Origin: a virus
Lineage: Duplodnaviria > Heunggongvirae > Uroviricota > Caudoviricetes
Direction: 5' to 3' (one strand)
DNA length: 40,169 nucleotides
Virus record (IMG/VR): IMGVR_UViG_2693429774_000011
The translations under genes were made by a program, and so were the position numbers. The notes beneath the pieces were generated by a model that did not search any database, was not told where the DNA came from, and worked only from the letters and a program-made list of their open reading frames with translations. Below are positions 2,947 to 31,843 of this stretch, one piece after another (position 1 is the stretch's first letter; every line of letters starts with the position of its first letter).

Positions 2947-4498
<1,552 letters not shown>

Positions 4499-25745: not shown

Positions 25746-25872
25746 CTATTATCCCTGTAGTTTTCGTTAAATATCTAACCATAACTGCAATCAAAAACCG
25801 CTTTAACACGGTTTGTTAAATAGACTTTTCAATCCAATGAACAAACGGCAAATAAATACCAATCGTTAATTT

Positions 25873-26328
25873 TCATTTGAATACAAACGGTTCTGAAAGA
25901 ATATTATGACAAATACATTTCGCCTGAATGCTATTATCTCTCATTCTAATATATTCTTTGTGGGCAACAGATAAAGAACGACAACCGCTGTTTACACTTG
26001 GGTATTTTTCCAACATATGCTCGCATATCAAAAAAGCATTATTAATAGCATTTAATTTATGGCTTAACTCTCGTAGCTCGGCTCTTTTTTCAATACGAAC
26101 ATTACGACTAAGAGATAAAGGTAGCTGTGATAATGCATTTGAATAATCAGCCACTGCCATTTTCAGAGCCATTTTGGCCTTCAGAGCCTCCTGTCGCCGC
26201 CAAACATTCATTGCCCAAAAACCTAATATAACAGTTAAAATTGAACCTAAAGCCGATACAACTGAACCTAAAGCCGATACAGCAGACCACTCTGTTCCCG
26301 AATGCCAGTTAAGTAACGTATGCCACAT
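25873..26328 (-). CDS. membrane-anchored protein, function unknown (AT-rich cargo)
   Basis: 151 aa from ATG with GGAGGT RBS; one N-terminal TM helix then a helical soluble domain. Confidence 0.55.
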   Translation of the reverse strand: MWHTLLNWHSGTEWSAVSALGSVVSALGSILTVILGFWAMNVWRRQEALKAKMALKMAVADYSNALSQLPLSLSRNVRIEKRAELRELSHKLNAINNAFLICEHMLEKYPSVNSGCRSLSVAHKEYIRMRDNSIQAKCICHNILSEPFVFK

Positions 26329-26661
26329 AATAACCTCCACTTAATGAAAAGGTTATTTTATCGTAACTAAGCACCACAGGCACTATCTAAAGATTAGATG
26401 CCCTACCAGTTGTACCATCGATAATCCGCACAAAAATGATACGTAATGAACCAACTGATAACTAACTCTGCTATGCACATTTTTAATCATCAACAAACGA
26501 TTTGTATTAACTTCCTCTCTCATACTAGCCCAAAAGGTTGGGCTAATAATTAATCACGATACATATTCTATGTGATGACATACTTTATGTAAGCTTTTAC
26601 ATTACACTATAGAAGCTGGAGCACCTAAACTTTATGCATCATATCTTTATAATAAATAACA

Positions 26662-26940
26662 TCACTCTGGATATTTATACTTTGAATGCAAAATAGCGCG
26701 CCGTGATTCAATATTTCTGATTCCGGTTTTATCAAAATTACATTGTCCTAACGCTGACAACAGAGCCACATTCAACTCCAGACTAGCACCATATGTCAGT
26801 GAACTGGGTATAATTGGAATCGGTGTTTCAGAAGTCAGGCTGGCTGGCAGTGGTGCCGCCGGAATGTTCACGTAAATTGTCCGCGTACTTCCGCAACCGG
26901 TCAGCAGCGGTAGCAGGCACAGGACGTGAAGCGCAATCAT
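26662..26940 (-). CDS. o-spanin (Rz1-like lipoprotein), start embedded in Rz
   Basis: +1 frame within and beyond Rz; lipobox LLTGC. Confidence 0.6.
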   Translation of the reverse strand: MIALHVLCLLPLLTGCGSTRTIYVNIPAAPLPASLTSETPIPIIPSSLTYGASLELNVALLSALGQCNFDKTGIRNIESRRAILHSKYKYPE

Positions 26941-27831: not shown

Positions 27832-28112
27832 TAGTGCCTCAGATGATCAACCAAACGTGCAACGTTGCCTCTGACGGCCACCAGCACGGAAAGAAAAATA
27901 GTATTCGCCACGATAATGAGCCATGAGGAGTGAGGATAAATCCCACAGAGATAGGCCAACGGAACAGCACTGTATGTAACAGTAATCAGCCAGGCTAAAC
28001 GTGAAACCCAAGGACGATGCCGCGAATCACCACGACGATAAAACATCAGAGTAATAACAACACAAGCACATAACAGCGCATTAATAGTTGCTGTCGGGTC
28101 ATTTAGCTCCAC
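27831..28112 (-). CDS. holin-like membrane protein (holin or antiholin)
   Basis: 93 aa, 2-3 TM helices, directly upstream of the endolysin. Confidence 0.6.
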   Translation of the reverse strand: MELNDPTATINALLCACVVITLMFYRRGDSRHRPWVSRLAWLITVTYSAVPLAYLCGIYPHSSWLIIVANTIFLSVLVAVRGNVARLVDHLRH

Positions 28113-28485
28113 CTGAACCTCCCCGGCGCGTTATGAGCGCCACCAGCGAGCCGATATCCTGATTATTCAGGAACGTCAGGATTTTAACGGCTAAAGCAGA
28201 GACGATTACGGCACCAATAGCATCCAGAGGTTTATCACTGTATCCGGTCAAGTTTGCCAGCTTGGAGCCAACCAACCCAGAGCAAAGGATCCCAGCAATA
28301 TATGACACGATAAAATATGCCAGTCGACGCGATGCACTCAGATCTGCTGCTGTTGCTATATAGAATACAGCCCCTGCAAATGCGCCAAATACAACGCCGT
28401 AATCAGTTCCGGTCAGCAGTCCATAAATACTAGCGCCCGTTAGGGCTCCACCAGCTAACCCTGTGCCGGAAATCGGATCGGACAT
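28099..28485 (-). CDS. holin-like membrane protein
   Basis: 128 aa from ATG with GAGGTG RBS; Gly/Ala-rich TM helices and charged C-terminus. Confidence 0.6.
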   Translation of the reverse strand: MSDPISGTGLAGGALTGASIYGLLTGTDYGVVFGAFAGAVFYIATAADLSASRRLAYFIVSYIAGILCSGLVGSKLANLTGYSDKPLDAIGAVIVSALAVKILTFLNNQDIGSLVALITRRGGSGGAK

Positions 28486-28593
28486 TAGCCACCTCTTATT
28501 GCAGTGAGTCCTCTCAGAAATAGAAATGAGAGGAATAAAAAAGGCCACCATTTGGCAGCCATAGAATTGATGTAATTATAACTAATTCATTAA

Positions 28594-29400
28594 CTATTTC
28601 TTAATGATGCTATTTAACATTTCTAATGCAAAAAGCAACATGGAGCTAATAAAATATAATATAACCGCACTGGCAATCGCTCCAATTATAGCCTGGACAC
28701 TCCAGTGAAAGTAATTTTTACCATTAATAACAAACTTAACACTAGGAAACAAAAAGTCGATAAGCTTAATTATTAATGGAATAGCAAAGCTCCATAAGTT
28801 CGAAAACAAAATAAAGATACAAATAAATGATAAAGCAAATGCACCATCGATTGATAGTTTTGGCGCCAGTTTTGAGGCTGTCCATAAGCTAAGCAAAAAG
28901 CCAACTGTCACACCTGAAATCTGGATACTTAACATAGTCCAAGCTGTTCTAAAAAATCTAAATTTATTTTTGCACTTGTTAAGTAAATCCTGAATCGTAA
29001 TCCATAACGAGTCAACCCACTCATTATCTTCCGATGCTACAATCATTGTGCTGCTATTTGAATTCCTCTCATCAATTCGTAGCTCCATCCAAGATCCATT
29101 CATCCTGTTAGACTGTCGACTTTGATAAGTTTCAATAGTAAAAATTATTTGATCAATCCTAGTGGCCTGTCTAAAGTATTTCACAAGCTCACCGATAGAA
29201 TCAACTTTATATCCCTTACCATCGAACAAAATAAAAAAAACACATTGAGCACAAACTTCCCTACTTTCCTTTTGAGCTTGCTCATTCATTTTAACGCAGC
29301 GTTCGACAATTGCCGTGCTTAAGCTAATCAAGCTATCTTCATTTATAGAAACACCTGAAATATTCTTGCTTCTGTAAAAATATGACACTTTCGATTCCAC
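28594..29400 (-). CDS. cargo protein: soluble N-terminal domain + C-terminal multi-TM domain, function unknown
   Basis: 268 aa, very AT-rich, between tR' and the holin genes; about 4 TM helices in the last 110 aa. Confidence 0.6.
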   Translation of the reverse strand: MESKVSYFYRSKNISGVSINEDSLISLSTAIVERCVKMNEQAQKESREVCAQCVFFILFDGKGYKVDSIGELVKYFRQATRIDQIIFTIETYQSRQSNRMNGSWMELRIDERNSNSSTMIVASEDNEWVDSLWITIQDLLNKCKNKFRFFRTAWTMLSIQISGVTVGFLLSLWTASKLAPKLSIDGAFALSFICIFILFSNLWSFAIPLIIKLIDFLFPSVKFVINGKNYFHWSVQAIIGAIASAVILYFISSMLLFALEMLNSIIKK

Positions 29401-29597
29401 TCCGCACCAGTCTCGATTTAGCGCAGGTTAACATAACCACTTCATTGGTAGAAGAAAAGAACTCTTCTTGTCAGAAAGCTACTGTGATATCCCTAAACCT
29501 GCAGATGATACAGAACAAAATTTAAGCATCAATTGTAGGCGATTTTAAATTCACTTTACAGTTTAGGCTGCCAATTGGCAGCCGATTGAAGCAGAAA

Positions 29598-29867
29598 TCA
29601 ATGAGTGCTCATCGATGAATTTTTTTCAGCGCCAATCTCACTCAAAAAAGCAAAACCTTTTGACGTTATCTCATTAGCAATCAATCCACCTTCGGCAGAT
29701 TTGCTTCGTATAACATCGATAAAACCTATATCAGCAAGATCTGAAATAGCAAAATTAACCTCTTTTGCTGAGAGATGAGGTAATGATGCAGCCTGAATTC
29801 TAGAATCCTTTGGCTGCAATTCATTCACTCGACGTAGTATTTCAAGATGGATAGAGGTCAGTTTCAT
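29598..29867 (-). CDS. small cargo protein, function unknown
   Basis: 89 aa, AT-rich, first ORF after the tR'-like terminator. Confidence 0.5.
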   Translation of the reverse strand: MKLTSIHLEILRRVNELQPKDSRIQAASLPHLSAKEVNFAISDLADIGFIDVIRSKSAEGGLIANEITSKGFAFLSEIGAEKNSSMSTH

Positions 29868-29950
29868 AATGTTCTCCTGTTTTTAATGTTGTTTTACAGA
29901 AAACATTATAACACATTGATTTTGATGTAGATTGAATAGAAAAAAACCAT

Positions 29951-29976
29951 AAAAAAACCTCGCAATAGCGAGGTCG
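29951..29976 (-). terminator. intrinsic terminator downstream of Q (tR'-like)
   Basis: minus strand CCTCGC-TATT-GCGAGG followed by 7 T, about 110 bp downstream of the Q stop. Confidence 0.6.
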
Positions 29977-30081
29977 TAAAAATCGTTCAACGATAGATAC
30001 ACAAGCCCCATCGTTGAGAAAATCTTATCCATATTTTTTGAGAAACACAAGCATTATGTCGTTATCTTCGGCGAAAATCGC

Positions 30082-30834
30082 TTATCTCGTCACCCTTCTC
30101 AATTGTGCTTCAGCGTAAGCTTCCTCCTGCCAGCACTTTGTAACCAGTTTATCAATGACATCTGCATATCCTTTGTACCACTGATAATCCGTCAGGTCTG
30201 GTACCAGCTTCTGGACATGAAGCCGCGCCAGTGTGGTTGGTAAACGGCTAAACCGGTTTCCATTGCAACGCCCACAAATCTTATAAACAGGCGTGCCATG
30301 AAGCCGGGTTCTTTTTTCATCCAGGACAATACCTTTACCCTTACACCCTCTGCACGCTGTGCTGACTTCTCCCTTACCATGACAATGCTGACATAGTTCC
30401 TTCACCCACTCTTCCTTGATAACAGACTCCCCGCTTCTGGAGTGTTTCACCACTTCGCGCAATACATTATGAAATCCAGTACCAGCACAATGCTCACAGC
30501 GAGCCTTACTTGCCGCAGACCTAGAATAATCAGCAAAGGCAAAATTCACAAGGTAAGGAATGATCTGTAGCCGGGTTTCTTCACTCAATTTGTTCAATGT
30601 CGGGTTATCCAGTGCCATCGCGTAATTGAGCAGACCTTCAATCGCAAACTGAGGATCCTGAACACCAACTTTTGCCAGGAATAAGGCAAACCCAAGCGGT
30701 GCTTTCGACTGCACCATCCCCTGCGCAGCCATCACATCTGTAATTGTTAAACCACCCGAGCCTGTCGCCGGTGCGTCATCACTCAATTTTGGAGATTTTG
30801 GGGAGTAATATTTTGGTAAGGCTTCAAGGTTCAT
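30082..30834 (-). CDS. late-gene antitermination protein Q-like (zinc-binding)
   Basis: 250 aa from ATG with GGAGAA RBS; CxxC zinc motifs; sits between nin-like genes and a terminator / lysis cassette. Confidence 0.6.
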   Translation of the reverse strand: MNLEALPKYYSPKSPKLSDDAPATGSGGLTITDVMAAQGMVQSKAPLGFALFLAKVGVQDPQFAIEGLLNYAMALDNPTLNKLSEETRLQIIPYLVNFAFADYSRSAASKARCEHCAGTGFHNVLREVVKHSRSGESVIKEEWVKELCQHCHGKGEVSTACRGCKGKGIVLDEKRTRLHGTPVYKICGRCNGNRFSRLPTTLARLHVQKLVPDLTDYQWYKGYADVIDKLVTKCWQEEAYAEAQLRRVTR

Positions 30835-30847
30835 GCTCGTTCTCCAC

Positions 30848-31843
30848 TTACGCCAGTACGCCAATTGCCAGCGCACGATCGATAAAACGAAATATCAGCT
30901 CCAGCTGGGAGCCATACTTCTCTTCAAATGCCACGGTATCCGCATGCAGCTCGTCGTGATGCTTTCTGCACAAAGGCAACACAAAGAGGTCATGCGCTTT
31001 TGTACCCATCCCACCCTGACCGTGGCCTATCAAGTGGTGGGGATCATCAGCAGGCTTTCCACAACATGCACACGGCTGTGTCTTAACCCAGCGCGTGTAC
31101 TTTTCATTAACCCAGCGGCGACGTTTTGGGCGTAACATAAAAGACTCCGGCGACTCCGGATCCACTTTCAGCGTCAGCACCTTTTTCGCCTTATCCTGGA
31201 TGATGCTGGTGGCAGGAACCGAAGGCACAAGGTCACTTTCCCGGGTGACAGACGGCACAACAGGCTTTGGTAATCTCAGTGCCTTACGGGCTGCACTTTC
31301 CGGTAAGGCATCCGCCAGGTCATTACGAATCAGCCACCAGCACAGTTCCGGCATTGTCACAACGTGACTATCATCAAAACCGAGATCCCGACGCACAACA
31401 GACAACACCCAGCGGGCACAGTTATCCGTTGCCATTGATTCCAGCCGTTCCGTGAACTGATCGCGCAGCTGGTTATCACAGTGCCAGCACAGACGGATTG
31501 CGCCCGGAGCGTGTCGCATTGTGGTCATGTTCTCGCTATGCCAGTCGGAATGAGGCCACTGGCAGCCTTTTTCACGAAGTAACCAGCTTTCAAGACATTC
31601 CACGCCACCAGCACGACGGATCACTGCCTCATTGCGGAACACGGCCCGAACAGCAGGATCATCCGCCAGCGGTTGTGATGCCGCGGGAACGGCACCACTG
31701 GCGAAAGATGAATAACGTTCCGGCTCAGGCTCCAGCAGTACACGCCCCTGCATAAACAGGGGCATCAGCTCTGAACCTGGTCTGAACAATACGATCCCCA
31801 TACGCGGGGCTATTTCAGGGGTCAGTAGTGCTCTCACGGTCAC
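30848..31843 (-). CDS. DUF968 / YdfU-like protein with HNH-like C-terminus
   Basis: 331 aa, C-terminal CACCGKP...HHLIGHG...CRKHHDELH. Confidence 0.6.
   Translation of the reverse strand: MTVRALLTPEIAPRMGIVLFRPGSELMPLFMQGRVLLEPEPERYSSFASGAVPAASQPLADDPAVRAVFRNEAVIRRAGGVECLESWLLREKGCQWPHSDWHSENMTTMRHAPGAIRLCWHCDNQLRDQFTERLESMATDNCARWVLSVVRRDLGFDDSHVVTMPELCWWLIRNDLADALPESAARKALRLPKPVVPSVTRESDLVPSVPATSIIQDKAKKVLTLKVDPESPESFMLRPKRRRWVNEKYTRWVKTQPCACCGKPADDPHHLIGHGQGGMGTKAHDLFVLPLCRKHHDELHADTVAFEEKYGSQLELIFRFIDRALAIGVLA

What the first reader, a model, noticed from the sequence alone, without database searches (positions are those of the whole stretch)
28594..29867. AT-rich two-gene cargo cassette between Q/tR' and the lysis genes
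Directly downstream of the Q-like gene and a tR'-like terminator, where lambdoid phages carry late-expressed cargo (stx, bor-like genes), are an 89-aa soluble protein and a 268-aa protein with a soluble N-domain and a C-terminal block of about 4 TM helices. A perfect 18-bp palindrome GGCTGCCAATTGGCAGCC (29566-29583) lies between them. Both are much more AT-rich than the flanking phage genes and match nothing I can name. A soluble-sensor plus membrane-effector layout is typical of abortive-infection or exclusion modules, but that is inference only.
Basis: inference. Interest (0 to 1): 0.55.

Follow-up and report, generated by a model that had tools for sequence, protein, structure and literature searches.

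The report
Two stacked prophage cargo genes
Between the late-gene switch (Q) and the lysis genes of an E. coli prophage sit two unrelated, separately mobile cargo genes: a small DNA-binding-type protein, and a membrane protein from an unnamed family that elsewhere travels as an integron gene cassette and whose function, possibly protection against other phages, is untested.

Summary
Both ORFs, the 18-bp palindrome, the AT-richness (35.9% vs 50.6% GC) and the position after Q and a tR'-like terminator are all there.

The "sensor plus effector" reading is not supported, because the genes are independent modules.
- Homologues of the 89-aa protein (a minimal MarR/DUF2513-like winged helix) sit alone in the same Q–holin slot in Citrobacter and Klebsiella phages. 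They carry a conserved extended -10 promoter and their own terminator.
- The membrane protein (true start GTG 29388, 264 aa) belongs to an unannotated family of about 230 clusters at 50% identity.
- In other phages it follows a methyltransferase instead. In environmental bacteria it is a solitary, low-GC integron cassette, with GTTATGC upstream, the stop codon inside GCATAAC, and attC-like repeats downstream.
- The phage copies keep the 5' core. Homology between phage variants starts exactly there (window 29437).

The palindrome is a copy of the slot's terminator hairpin that has lost its T-run, so it is not an operator. In this phage the two modules probably form one lysogen-expressed transcript that stops before the holin gene.

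No homology or fold match gives a function. Anti-phage exclusion is the best guess, at about 0.35–0.4.

The parts
30082..30876 (-). Q antiterminator gene. The RefSeq start gives 30834-30082. It forms the upstream border of the cargo slot.
   Evidence: Pfam PF03589 Antiterm, E = 4.5e-53. RefSeq annotates it as 'antitermination protein'.
30020..30060 (-). Candidate late promoter pR' region (TTGTGT-17 nt-TAAGAT, 30050-30022). Assigned by inference only.
   Evidence: The sequence and spacing are conserved in the HeN100 prophage, which carries different cargo. It is too weak for the consensus promoter scan.
29949..29975 (-). tR'-like intrinsic terminator: an 8-bp stem followed by a T-run.
   Evidence: Terminator scan. 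Folds at -13.7 kcal/mol, z = -4.95. A terminator sits at the equivalent position in L011, L027, L025 and L002.
29905..29935 (-). Conserved promoter block of the 89-aa module: TCAATCTACATCAAAATCAATGTGTTATAAT, with an extended -10 (TG 29913-29912, TATAAT 29910-29905).
   Evidence: 30 of 32 bases are identical between the E. coli and Citrobacter modules. The coding regions are only about 55% identical at the amino-acid level (dS 1.1-1.5), and the flanks diverge. The Klebsiella versions have TGGTAAAAT at the same place.
29598..29867 (-). 89-aa minimal winged-helix (MarR/DUF2513-like) protein. RBS AGGAG at 29878-29874.
   Evidence: phrog_32916, E = 3e-61. DUF2513 E = 2.4e-4, below the Pfam cut-off; 16 of 19 family members hit it weakly. 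The family profile matches MarR structures 3f3x (E = 9e-4) and ST1710 (E = 2e-3) over the wHTH core. dN/dS 0.22-0.29.
29566..29583 (-). Perfect 18-bp palindrome. It is a copy of the slot's terminator hairpin that lacks the T-run, and it marks the module joint. It probably allows read-through.
   Evidence: 15 of 18 bases match the hairpin at 28560-28543 (D3/I2). The same hairpin GGCTGCC-AWWT-GGYGGCC with a T-run follows the solitary 79-aa gene in Citrobacter phages, and follows the membrane-protein gene in L002-4 and L034-36. Here it is followed by TAAACTG.
29431..29437 (-). GTTATGT: an integron-cassette 5' core-site relic, and the left boundary of the membrane-protein module.
   Evidence: Identity to L002, L034 and L048 jumps from 2-6 of 20 to 15-19 of 20 exactly at this heptamer. 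GTTATGC lies 29-58 nt upstream of the start in cassette-borne relatives.
28594..29388 (-). It has an N-terminal alpha/beta domain of about 145 aa and 3-4 C-terminal TM helices.
   Evidence: RefSeq WP_001459463, 'membrane domain protein' or hypothetical. The start is supported by alignment. AF2 model. Family of 230 representative clusters, nearly all about 260 aa. No Pfam, PADLOC or PDB-sequence match for 73 members. dN/dS 0.15.
28537..28560 (-). Intrinsic terminator (GGCTGCCAAATGGTGGCC plus T6) that closes the cargo unit before the holin gene.
   Evidence: Terminator scan. Folds at -11.4 kcal/mol. Conserved in L002-4 and L034-36. Homology with the HeN100 prophage resumes directly after it.
28099..28485 (-). 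First holin gene (Phage_holin_8), the downstream border of the slot.
   Evidence: Pfam PF16931, E = 1.5e-34, matching residues 23-145 of the long ORF. RefSeq start.

Best explanation
The segment is two independently mobile, single-gene accessory modules stacked in the variable cargo slot between Q/tR' and the holin gene of an E. coli lambdoid prophage.

Module 1 is a classical moron. It has a conserved extended -10 promoter, a minimal winged-helix protein of 89 aa, and a terminator hairpin.

Module 2 encodes a 264-aa protein with a cytoplasmic alpha/beta domain and 3-4 TM helices.
- Its family is otherwise carried as a solitary, low-GC integron gene cassette in environmental bacteria.
- The phage copy keeps the cassette's 5' core (GTTATGT) but has lost the attC.
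- It ends at the slot's terminator.

Where the modules were joined, the first terminator lost its T-run. That left the perfect palindrome.

Inferred expression:
- In the lysogen, the module-1 promoter transcribes both genes and stops at 28560-28537, which keeps the holin gene silent.
- After induction, Q-modified polymerase from pR' reads through everything.

Inferred function:
- Because the membrane protein moves as a single gene, whatever it does is self-contained.
- The most likely function (about 0.35-0.4) is membrane-level protection of the lysogen against other phages. In that reading the cytoplasmic domain acts as the trigger and the TM helices as the effector.
- The 89-aa protein is most likely a DNA-binding regulator with a separate role.
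For: Shown by sequence comparison:
- The slot is variable between otherwise homologous prophages.
- 79-aa homologues stand alone between three Q families and several holin families in Citrobacter and Klebsiella phages.
- The promoter block is 30 of 32 identical where synonymous sites are saturated.
- The terminator hairpin is shared by both modules, and the palindrome is its T-less copy.
- Membrane-protein homologues sit next to the holin gene with other upstream partners.
- The family has 230 clusters at 50% identity, all with one architecture.
- Integron signatures among 24 metagenome loci: GCATAAC overlaps the stop codon in 11, and GTTATGC lies within 80 nt upstream of the start in 9. attC-like R''-L''...L'-R' repeats end in GTTRRRY.
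- Several genome loci show the same signatures. One has a Pfam 'integron cassette protein' as neighbour, and co-oriented small ORFs flank the gene.
- The gene's GC is below that of its locus in 13 of 14 and 21 of 24 loci.
- Homology between phage variants begins exactly at GTTATG.

Background for the defence guess:
- About a third of unknown-function cassettes in mobile integrons were found to confer phage resistance. About a third of those proteins have TM helices (Kieffer et al., bioRxiv 10.1101/2024.07.02.601719).
- Integron components have been reported in phage genomes (PMC9892861).
- One distant homologue lies beside GmrSD_N/HEPN genes and a TumE-containing pair. Others lie beside SocA_Panacea or Gp49/HTH_37 toxin-antitoxin pairs.
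Against: - No expression data. Both promoters and the read-through of the T-less hairpin are sequence inference.
- No integron integrase was found in the flanks held.
- No attC is visible 3' of the phage copy.
- There is no functional evidence for defence. No PADLOC model matches, including the candidate PDC families.
- Most neighbours of distant homologues are housekeeping genes or unknowns. The apparent defence hits were cross-matches to ABC-F ATPases and a helicase.
- The enterobacterial phage clade has replaced residues that are about 82-93% conserved in the family: D11 to S, R58 to L, R84 to Q. Its N-domain may therefore work differently or be degenerate.
- In E. coli the two genes are always together, so a lineage-specific functional link cannot be excluded.
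Confidence: 0.6

Rival explanations
1. An obligate two-gene anti-phage system. The 89-aa protein would sense or regulate, and the membrane protein would kill or exclude.
For: - The genes are adjacent and on the same strand. They are probably co-transcribed, because the hairpin between them lacks a T-run.
- They are always together in the 41 E. coli genomes that carry either.
- One distant homologue of the membrane protein (L008) has a small MarR-like wHTH gene directly upstream.
Against: - Every diverged homologue of either gene lacks the other.
- The E. coli co-occurrence is a single lineage at 99% identity or more.
- The L008 wHTH is unrelated to the 89-aa family (hhalign probability 2%). 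It follows a TumE-family gene, with which it may instead be paired.
- The membrane protein spreads as a single-gene integron cassette.
Confidence: 0.1
2. A lysis accessory of the phage itself, such as an antiholin or lysis-timing regulator. It would be expressed only late from pR' together with the holins.
For: - In three different phage backgrounds the gene lies immediately upstream of the first holin gene: Phage_holin_8 or Phage_holin_2_1.
- It is a multi-TM protein inside the Q-dependent late transcription unit.
Against: - An intrinsic terminator separates it from the holin gene.
- Closely related prophages with the same holins lack it.
- Most of the family is in non-phage, integron-type contexts in bacteria with no lysis genes nearby.
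- It has no similarity to any Pfam or PHROG lysis family.
Confidence: 0.1
3. Cargo with a function unrelated to defence, such as transport or stress tolerance, or effectively neutral hitch-hiking DNA that H-NS silences in E. coli.
For: - No defence-model hit and no consistent defence-island context.
- Most integron cassettes have unknown, diverse functions.
- At 34% GC it is a typical H-NS target (established knowledge).
- The phage clade has lost conserved N-domain residues.
Against: - Purifying selection at dN/dS 0.15 between phage variants argues against neutrality.
- The TM motifs are retained: Q160, S200-N201-x-W203, P219, F223.
- It recurs in a phage cargo slot and next to toxin-antitoxin or defence genes in some loci.
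Confidence: 0.3

Closest known systems
Phage morons (Hendrix/Juhala definition; for example lambda bor and lom, HK97 gp15, and stx in the Q–S interval of lambdoid phages)
   Same: - Extra genes lie between genes that are adjacent in relatives.
- The composition is atypical.
- The unit has its own promoter-like element and its own terminator.
- It occupies the same Q-to-holin slot that carries stx and other cargo.
   Different: - Two unrelated morons are fused into one probable transcription unit by loss of the first terminator's T-run.
- Neither product resembles a characterised moron protein.
Integron gene cassettes of unknown function, including the phage-resistance cassettes (BRiCs) of Kieffer et al. 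2025, the sedentary-integron defence cassettes of Darracq et al. 2025, and integron parts in phage genomes (Qi et al. 2023, PMC9892861)
   Same: - Relatives of the 264-aa gene show the cassette anatomy: a 5' GTTATGC core, the stop codon inside the inverse core GCATAAC, attC-like repeats, and co-oriented small ORFs.
- It is a single self-contained gene, and many validated resistance cassettes also encode TM proteins.
   Different: - The copy in this window is not in an integron. It keeps only the 5' core and ends in a rho-independent terminator.
- No sequence link to any named BRiC could be made. A motif search of the preprint's supplement found nothing.
- Function is untested.
Single-protein membrane-acting phage exclusion or abortive-infection factors (T4 Imm, P22 SieA, HK97 gp15, lambda RexB, lactococcal AbiZ, and the TM effectors of CBASS, retron and Pycsar systems)
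   Same: It is prophage-borne and probably expressed in the lysogen. Its layout is a cytoplasmic domain plus a few TM helices.
   Different: - No sequence or fold similarity to any of them.
- No partner signalling enzyme.
- No phenotype is known.
MarR-type winged-helix proteins and Pfam DUF2513 (structure: B. subtilis YjcQ, 2hgc)
   Same: The 89-aa family aligns to the wHTH core of MarR structures (E about 1e-3). 16 of 19 members hit DUF2513 weakly.
   Different: - It is about 80 aa and lacks the MarR dimerisation helices.
- All Pfam scores are below the curated cut-off.
- DNA binding has not been shown.

Membership tests
Phage moron | Inserted between genes that are adjacent, or differently filled, in close relatives | tested here: met
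   HeN100 has the same Q end, candidate pR' region, tR' position and holin gene but an unrelated 85-aa ORF. The homology breakpoints lie after tR' and after the terminator at 28543.
Phage moron | Own promoter and own terminator | tested here: inconclusive
   The extended -10 block is conserved 30 of 32, and a terminator hairpin with T-run is present. Both are sequence-level only; no transcript data.
Phage moron | Nucleotide composition unlike the surrounding phage genes | tested here: met
   35.9% GC against 50.6%.
Integron gene cassette | ORF bounded by a 5' core (G|TTRRRY) and a 3' attC (R''-L''...L'-R') | tested here: not met
   In the window only the 5' GTTATGT (29437-29431) is present; no RYYYAAC or attC follows the stop codon. 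Relatives do meet this feature: L013, L016, L055, L058, L062, L063, L069 and L072.
Integron gene cassette | Integron integrase or attI nearby, or a cluster of attC sites | tested here: inconclusive
   No Phage_integrase hit among the neighbour families listed (the top 25 per call). Co-oriented small ORFs and a PF21648 'integron cassette protein' neighbour suggest attC clusters. IntegronFinder was not available.
Two-gene defence system (sensor plus effector) | Both genes co-occur across diverged homologues | tested here: not met
   No co-occurrence outside the single E. coli lineage at 99% identity or more.
Known anti-phage defence families (PADLOC-DB 2.0) | Significant match to a defence protein model | tested here: not met
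   No hit for either window protein at E <= 1. Two noise-level hits among 73 family members. Newer DefenseFinder models could not be searched.
Anti-phage defence (functional) | Reduces phage plating or burst when expressed | not testable with these tools
   Needs phage challenge assays.
MarR / DUF2513 winged helix | Profile match above the curated threshold | tested here: inconclusive
   DUF2513 scores 21.8 bits against a cut-off of 29.6. 16 of 19 members hit weakly. MarR structures match at E = 9e-4 to 2e-3. The single-sequence AF2 model is unusable, pLDDT 54.
Holin, antiholin or lysis accessory | Homology to a lysis family, or restriction to lysis cassettes | tested here: not met
   No Pfam or PHROG lysis family matches. 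Most of the family is outside phages.
Q-dependent late-operon cargo | Lies downstream of pR'/tR' and upstream of the lysis genes on the same strand | tested here: met
   Gene order and strand and the terminator at 29975-29956. Q-dependence of expression was not testable.

The most novel reading that the evidence does not exclude
The 264-aa protein is the founding member of an undescribed, single-protein, membrane-acting anti-phage defence family. It shuttles between integron cassette arrays and the Q–holin cargo slot of lambdoid prophages. Phages would have captured it at an integron-type core site and wired it to a resident moron promoter by eroding a terminator.
Probability: 0.3. Interest if true: 0.6.

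Novelty: new member of a known kind. Interest (0 to 1): 0.42.

Why it matters
If the membrane protein has an anti-phage or other adaptive function, it names a protein family of about 230 clusters that no database currently annotates. That family is found in both integron cassettes and prophages.

The locus also gives a concrete, base-resolved example of two things:
- How a promoterless integron cassette can be captured by a phage.
- How it can be made expressible: the junction lies at the core site, and the upstream terminator has lost its T-run.

The locus also shows that gene adjacency inside a phage cargo slot is poor evidence for a functional gene pair.

Tried and rejected
**Homology searches for the membrane protein all came back empty**
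- Pfam, NCBIfam and PADLOC on the window protein.
- Pfam and PADLOC on 73 family members.
- Family profile against PDB sequences.
- PHROGs gives only unknown-function families.

**Structure**
- The AF2 model is good for the N-domain only.
- No Foldseek match against PDB or BFVD has E <= 0.001. Weak CYTH-like hits have probability 0.1-0.75. I treat these as uninformative.
- afdb50 was not available.

**The palindrome as an operator for the wHTH protein: rejected**
- The same hairpin, imperfect and followed by a T-run, is the terminator of both modules in other phages.
- The Klebsiella versions use a different hairpin.

**Defence-island context for distant homologues: rejected**
- The AriA, GajA, PtuA and Cas3 hits are cross-matches to ABC-F ATPases and a helicase.

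**Other dead ends**
- The wHTH gene upstream of the L008 homologue is not related to the 89-aa family.
- Rfam and tRNA scans of the region found nothing above threshold.
- DNA and protein searches of isolated phage genomes found no copy of the membrane-protein gene.

**Literature**
- No paper mentions WP_001459463, WP_000779379 or DUF2513.
- Neither accession is in the DefensePredictor supplements.
- Family motifs are absent from the BRiC preprint supplement.
- Brenes & Laub 2025 could not be read.
- A covariance model for attC was not built, because the alignment's central part was too variable.

Full report
**1. What is there**

The window is an E. coli lambdoid prophage. The region is 100% identical to E. 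coli F9792 (NZ_CP024273). All genes discussed are on the - strand, in this order:
- KilA-N, DUF968, then Q (PF03589, 30876-30082).
- A candidate pR' region, then a tR'-like terminator (29975-29956).
- The 89-aa ORF (29867-29598).
- The palindrome (29583-29566).
- The membrane-protein ORF (29400 or 29388 to 28594).
- A second terminator (28560-28543 plus T6).
- Phage_holin_8, Phage_holin_3_7, a GH19 endolysin and Rz/Rz1.

The cargo is 35.9% GC against 50.6% for the window.

One correction applies. The membrane protein most likely starts at GTG 29388, giving 264 aa.
- This is the RefSeq call.
- It aligns with the ATG of a 52%-identical homologue.
- The N-terminus is conserved across the family and forms part of the folded domain.

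Both genes are real. dN/dS is 0.15 for the membrane protein and 0.22-0.29 for the 89-aa gene.

**2. The 89-aa gene is an autonomous moron found alone elsewhere**

A first word-indexed search found only near-identical copies. tblastn against isolated phages then found 37-39% identical 79-aa proteins in two Klebsiella phages. A profile search added Citrobacter homologues at 54-58% identity.

In every context read, the gene stands alone about 150-200 bp after a Q gene and about 85-170 bp before a holin gene.
- The Q genes belong to three different families: PF03589 here, PF06323, and a DUF1133/Q-like family.
- The holin genes belong to several families.
- No membrane-protein gene is present in any of these loci.

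The block TCAATCTACRTCAAAATCAATRTGTTATAAT, with its extended -10, is 30 of 32 identical between the E. coli and Citrobacter modules.
- Synonymous sites in the coding region are saturated (dS 1.1-1.5), and the flanking sequence is unalignable.
- The Klebsiella versions have TGGTAAAAT in the same place.
- Each version is followed by a terminator hairpin.

That combination of promoter, gene and terminator, placed after tR', is the textbook moron layout.

The protein is a minimal winged helix.
- The family profile matches the wHTH core of MarR structures at E about 1e-3.
- 16 of 19 members hit DUF2513 weakly.
- Nothing passes a curated threshold, and the single-sequence AF2 model is unusable.

**3. 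The membrane protein belongs to a sizeable unannotated family that moves as a single gene**

The word-indexed search found nine clusters. A full profile search found 230 representatives at 50% clustering, and 127 of them have E <= 1e-30. Almost all are about 260 aa and match end to end.

In enterobacterial prophages the gene again lies directly upstream of the holin gene, but with other upstream neighbours. These are an N6/N4 methyltransferase, sometimes with a 200-226-aa unknown, or a methyltransferase remnant.

In genomes and metagenomes of Methylobacter, Gallionella, Thiobacillus, Methyloversatilis, Nitrospira, Bacteroidota and others, it is a solitary gene with no conserved partner.

Its GC content is below that of its locus in 13 of 14 and 21 of 24 loci, by up to 22 points.

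**4. It is an integron cassette in those bacteria**

Evidence from the 24 metagenome loci:
- The stop codon lies inside GCATAAC in 11 (14 with a looser pattern).
- The exact inverse, GTTATGC, lies within 80 nt upstream of the start in 9 (13 with a looser pattern).
- The sequence after the stop has the attC layout. Examples:
  - L055: GCATAAC-ccgacgttctagcgggac...gcccctcaacttaac-GTTAGGT
  - L072: GCATAAC...GTTAGGC
  - L069: GCATAAC...GTTGAAC

Several genome loci show the same signatures, and an alignment of nine such 3' flanks shows the shared layout.

The inverse core at the 3' end pairs with the "own" core at the 5' end. This is what the integron model predicts for a cassette that has been excised and re-inserted.

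In a Gallionella contig the upstream neighbour is a Pfam "integron cassette protein". The gene sits in a run of small co-oriented ORFs there, and similar runs occur in the metagenome loci.

No integron integrase was seen in the flanks held. These may therefore be attC clusters that lack an integrase, or the integrase may lie further away.

**5. How the two modules were joined in this phage**

The window and the 78%-identical phage variants (L002, L034, L048) are unrelated upstream of the gene, at 2-6 identities per 20 nt. They become 75-95% identical exactly at GTTATG (window 29437). The phage copies thus keep the cassette's 5' boundary. No attC remains at the 3' end.

The hairpin GGCTGCC-AWWT-GGYGGCC followed by a T-run occurs in three settings:
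- as the terminator after the solitary 79-aa gene in Citrobacter;
- as the terminator after the membrane-protein gene in all enterobacterial phage copies;
- in this window also between the two genes, as a perfect palindrome followed by TAAACTG instead of a T-run.

The palindrome is therefore the old module-1 terminator without its T-run. It is not an operator.

Inferred consequence:
- The (normally promoterless) cassette gene is transcribed from the module-1 promoter in the lysogen.
- The downstream terminator protects the cell from holin expression.
- Q-modified polymerase overrides both hairpins after induction.

A second conserved box, TGnTAAYCT, overlaps the core relic. It could also act as a weak promoter.

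**6. Function**

Nothing identifies the biochemical activity.
- The family conserves polar residues inside the hydrophobic helices: Q160, S200-N201-x-W203, and an FPN motif at 218-223.
- It also conserves a charged set in the N-domain: D11, R58, D60, E83/R84, D110.
- The enterobacterial phage clade has replaced D11, R58 and R84.

Arguments for a self-contained accessory trait:
- The gene spreads as a single cassette.
- It sits in a phage cargo slot.
- It is probably expressed in the lysogen.
- It is found beside GmrSD_N/HEPN genes and a TumE-containing pair in one locus, and beside SocA_Panacea or Gp49/HTH_37 toxin-antitoxin pairs in others.

Published screens report that about a third of unknown-function integron cassettes confer phage resistance. 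About a third of those proteins have TM helices. I therefore rate phage exclusion or abortive infection as the single most likely function, at about 0.35-0.4.

Arguments against the defence reading:
- No defence-model hit.
- Mostly housekeeping or unknown neighbours.

A lysis-accessory role is unlikely. A terminator separates the gene from the holin gene, related phages with the same holins lack it, and most family members are not in phages.

**7. Verdict**

"Cargo cassette" is right. "Two-gene sensor–effector system" is not supported. The palindrome is explained.

The locus is an ordinary kind of thing, a moron slot, filled with two uncharacterised genes. One of them links integron cassettes and prophages at base resolution and is a reasonable candidate for a new single-gene defence. 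Integron parts in phage genomes have been reported before (PMC9892861), so the route itself is not new.

Noticed in passing
window 25873-26340 (-), within the AT-rich stretch 25750-26800: A second low-GC region (32-40%) lies between Rz/Rz1 and the HNH/terminase genes. It holds a 155-aa ORF (RefSeq aa, hypothetical) with an N-terminal hydrophobic helix. It looks like another cargo slot.
   Followed up: no
window 28510-28533 (-): The inverted repeat CCTCTCA-N10-TGAGAGG lies just upstream of the holin_8 ribosome-binding site. It is conserved in phages with different cargo (L002, L011, L026, L034) and could be an RNA element controlling holin translation.
   Followed up: no
L002 3003-4941; L034 1925-3806; L006 2541-3614: In Citrobacter and other enterobacterial prophages the same slot holds a 200-226-aa protein with no Pfam hit and an N6/N4 DNA methyltransferase directly upstream of the membrane-protein gene. 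L005 and L007 keep only a methyltransferase remnant.
   Followed up: partly
L034 about 3890-4000 (protein P0003): The 231-aa form, which is also the length of the phrog_30208 model, arises from an in-frame stop upstream of Met38. It is an N-terminally truncated variant or a pseudogene.
   Followed up: partly
window 28594-29388 (protein residues 11, 58, 84 in 268-aa numbering): The enterobacterial phage clade has S, L and Q where 82-93% of the family has D, R and R. The TM motifs are kept. The N-domain may have changed function.
   Followed up: partly
protein P0086: A 2105-aa protein matches profile positions 136-180 (the juxtamembrane and TM1 region) in 24 separate stretches. It is either a repetitive protein or a low-complexity artefact.
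   Followed up: no
L008 2204-4814: A 39%-identical homologue lies next to a GmrSD_N protein, a HEPN protein and a TumE plus MarR-like pair. This is the only clear defence-island context seen.
   Followed up: partly
window 28486-28551 (-): The mechanical 150-aa holin ORF starts inside the terminator hairpin. The Pfam match (residues 23-145) and RefSeq place the real start at 28485.
   Followed up: yes
L025 4238-4300 and L026 4172-4235, compared with L011 1825-1850: The hairpin AACCTCGCTTCGGCGGGGTTTTT is tR' (upstream of the cargo) in E. coli HeN100. In two Klebsiella phages it is the terminator downstream of the 79-aa gene. Terminator hairpins seem to be the recombination joints of this slot.
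   Followed up: partly
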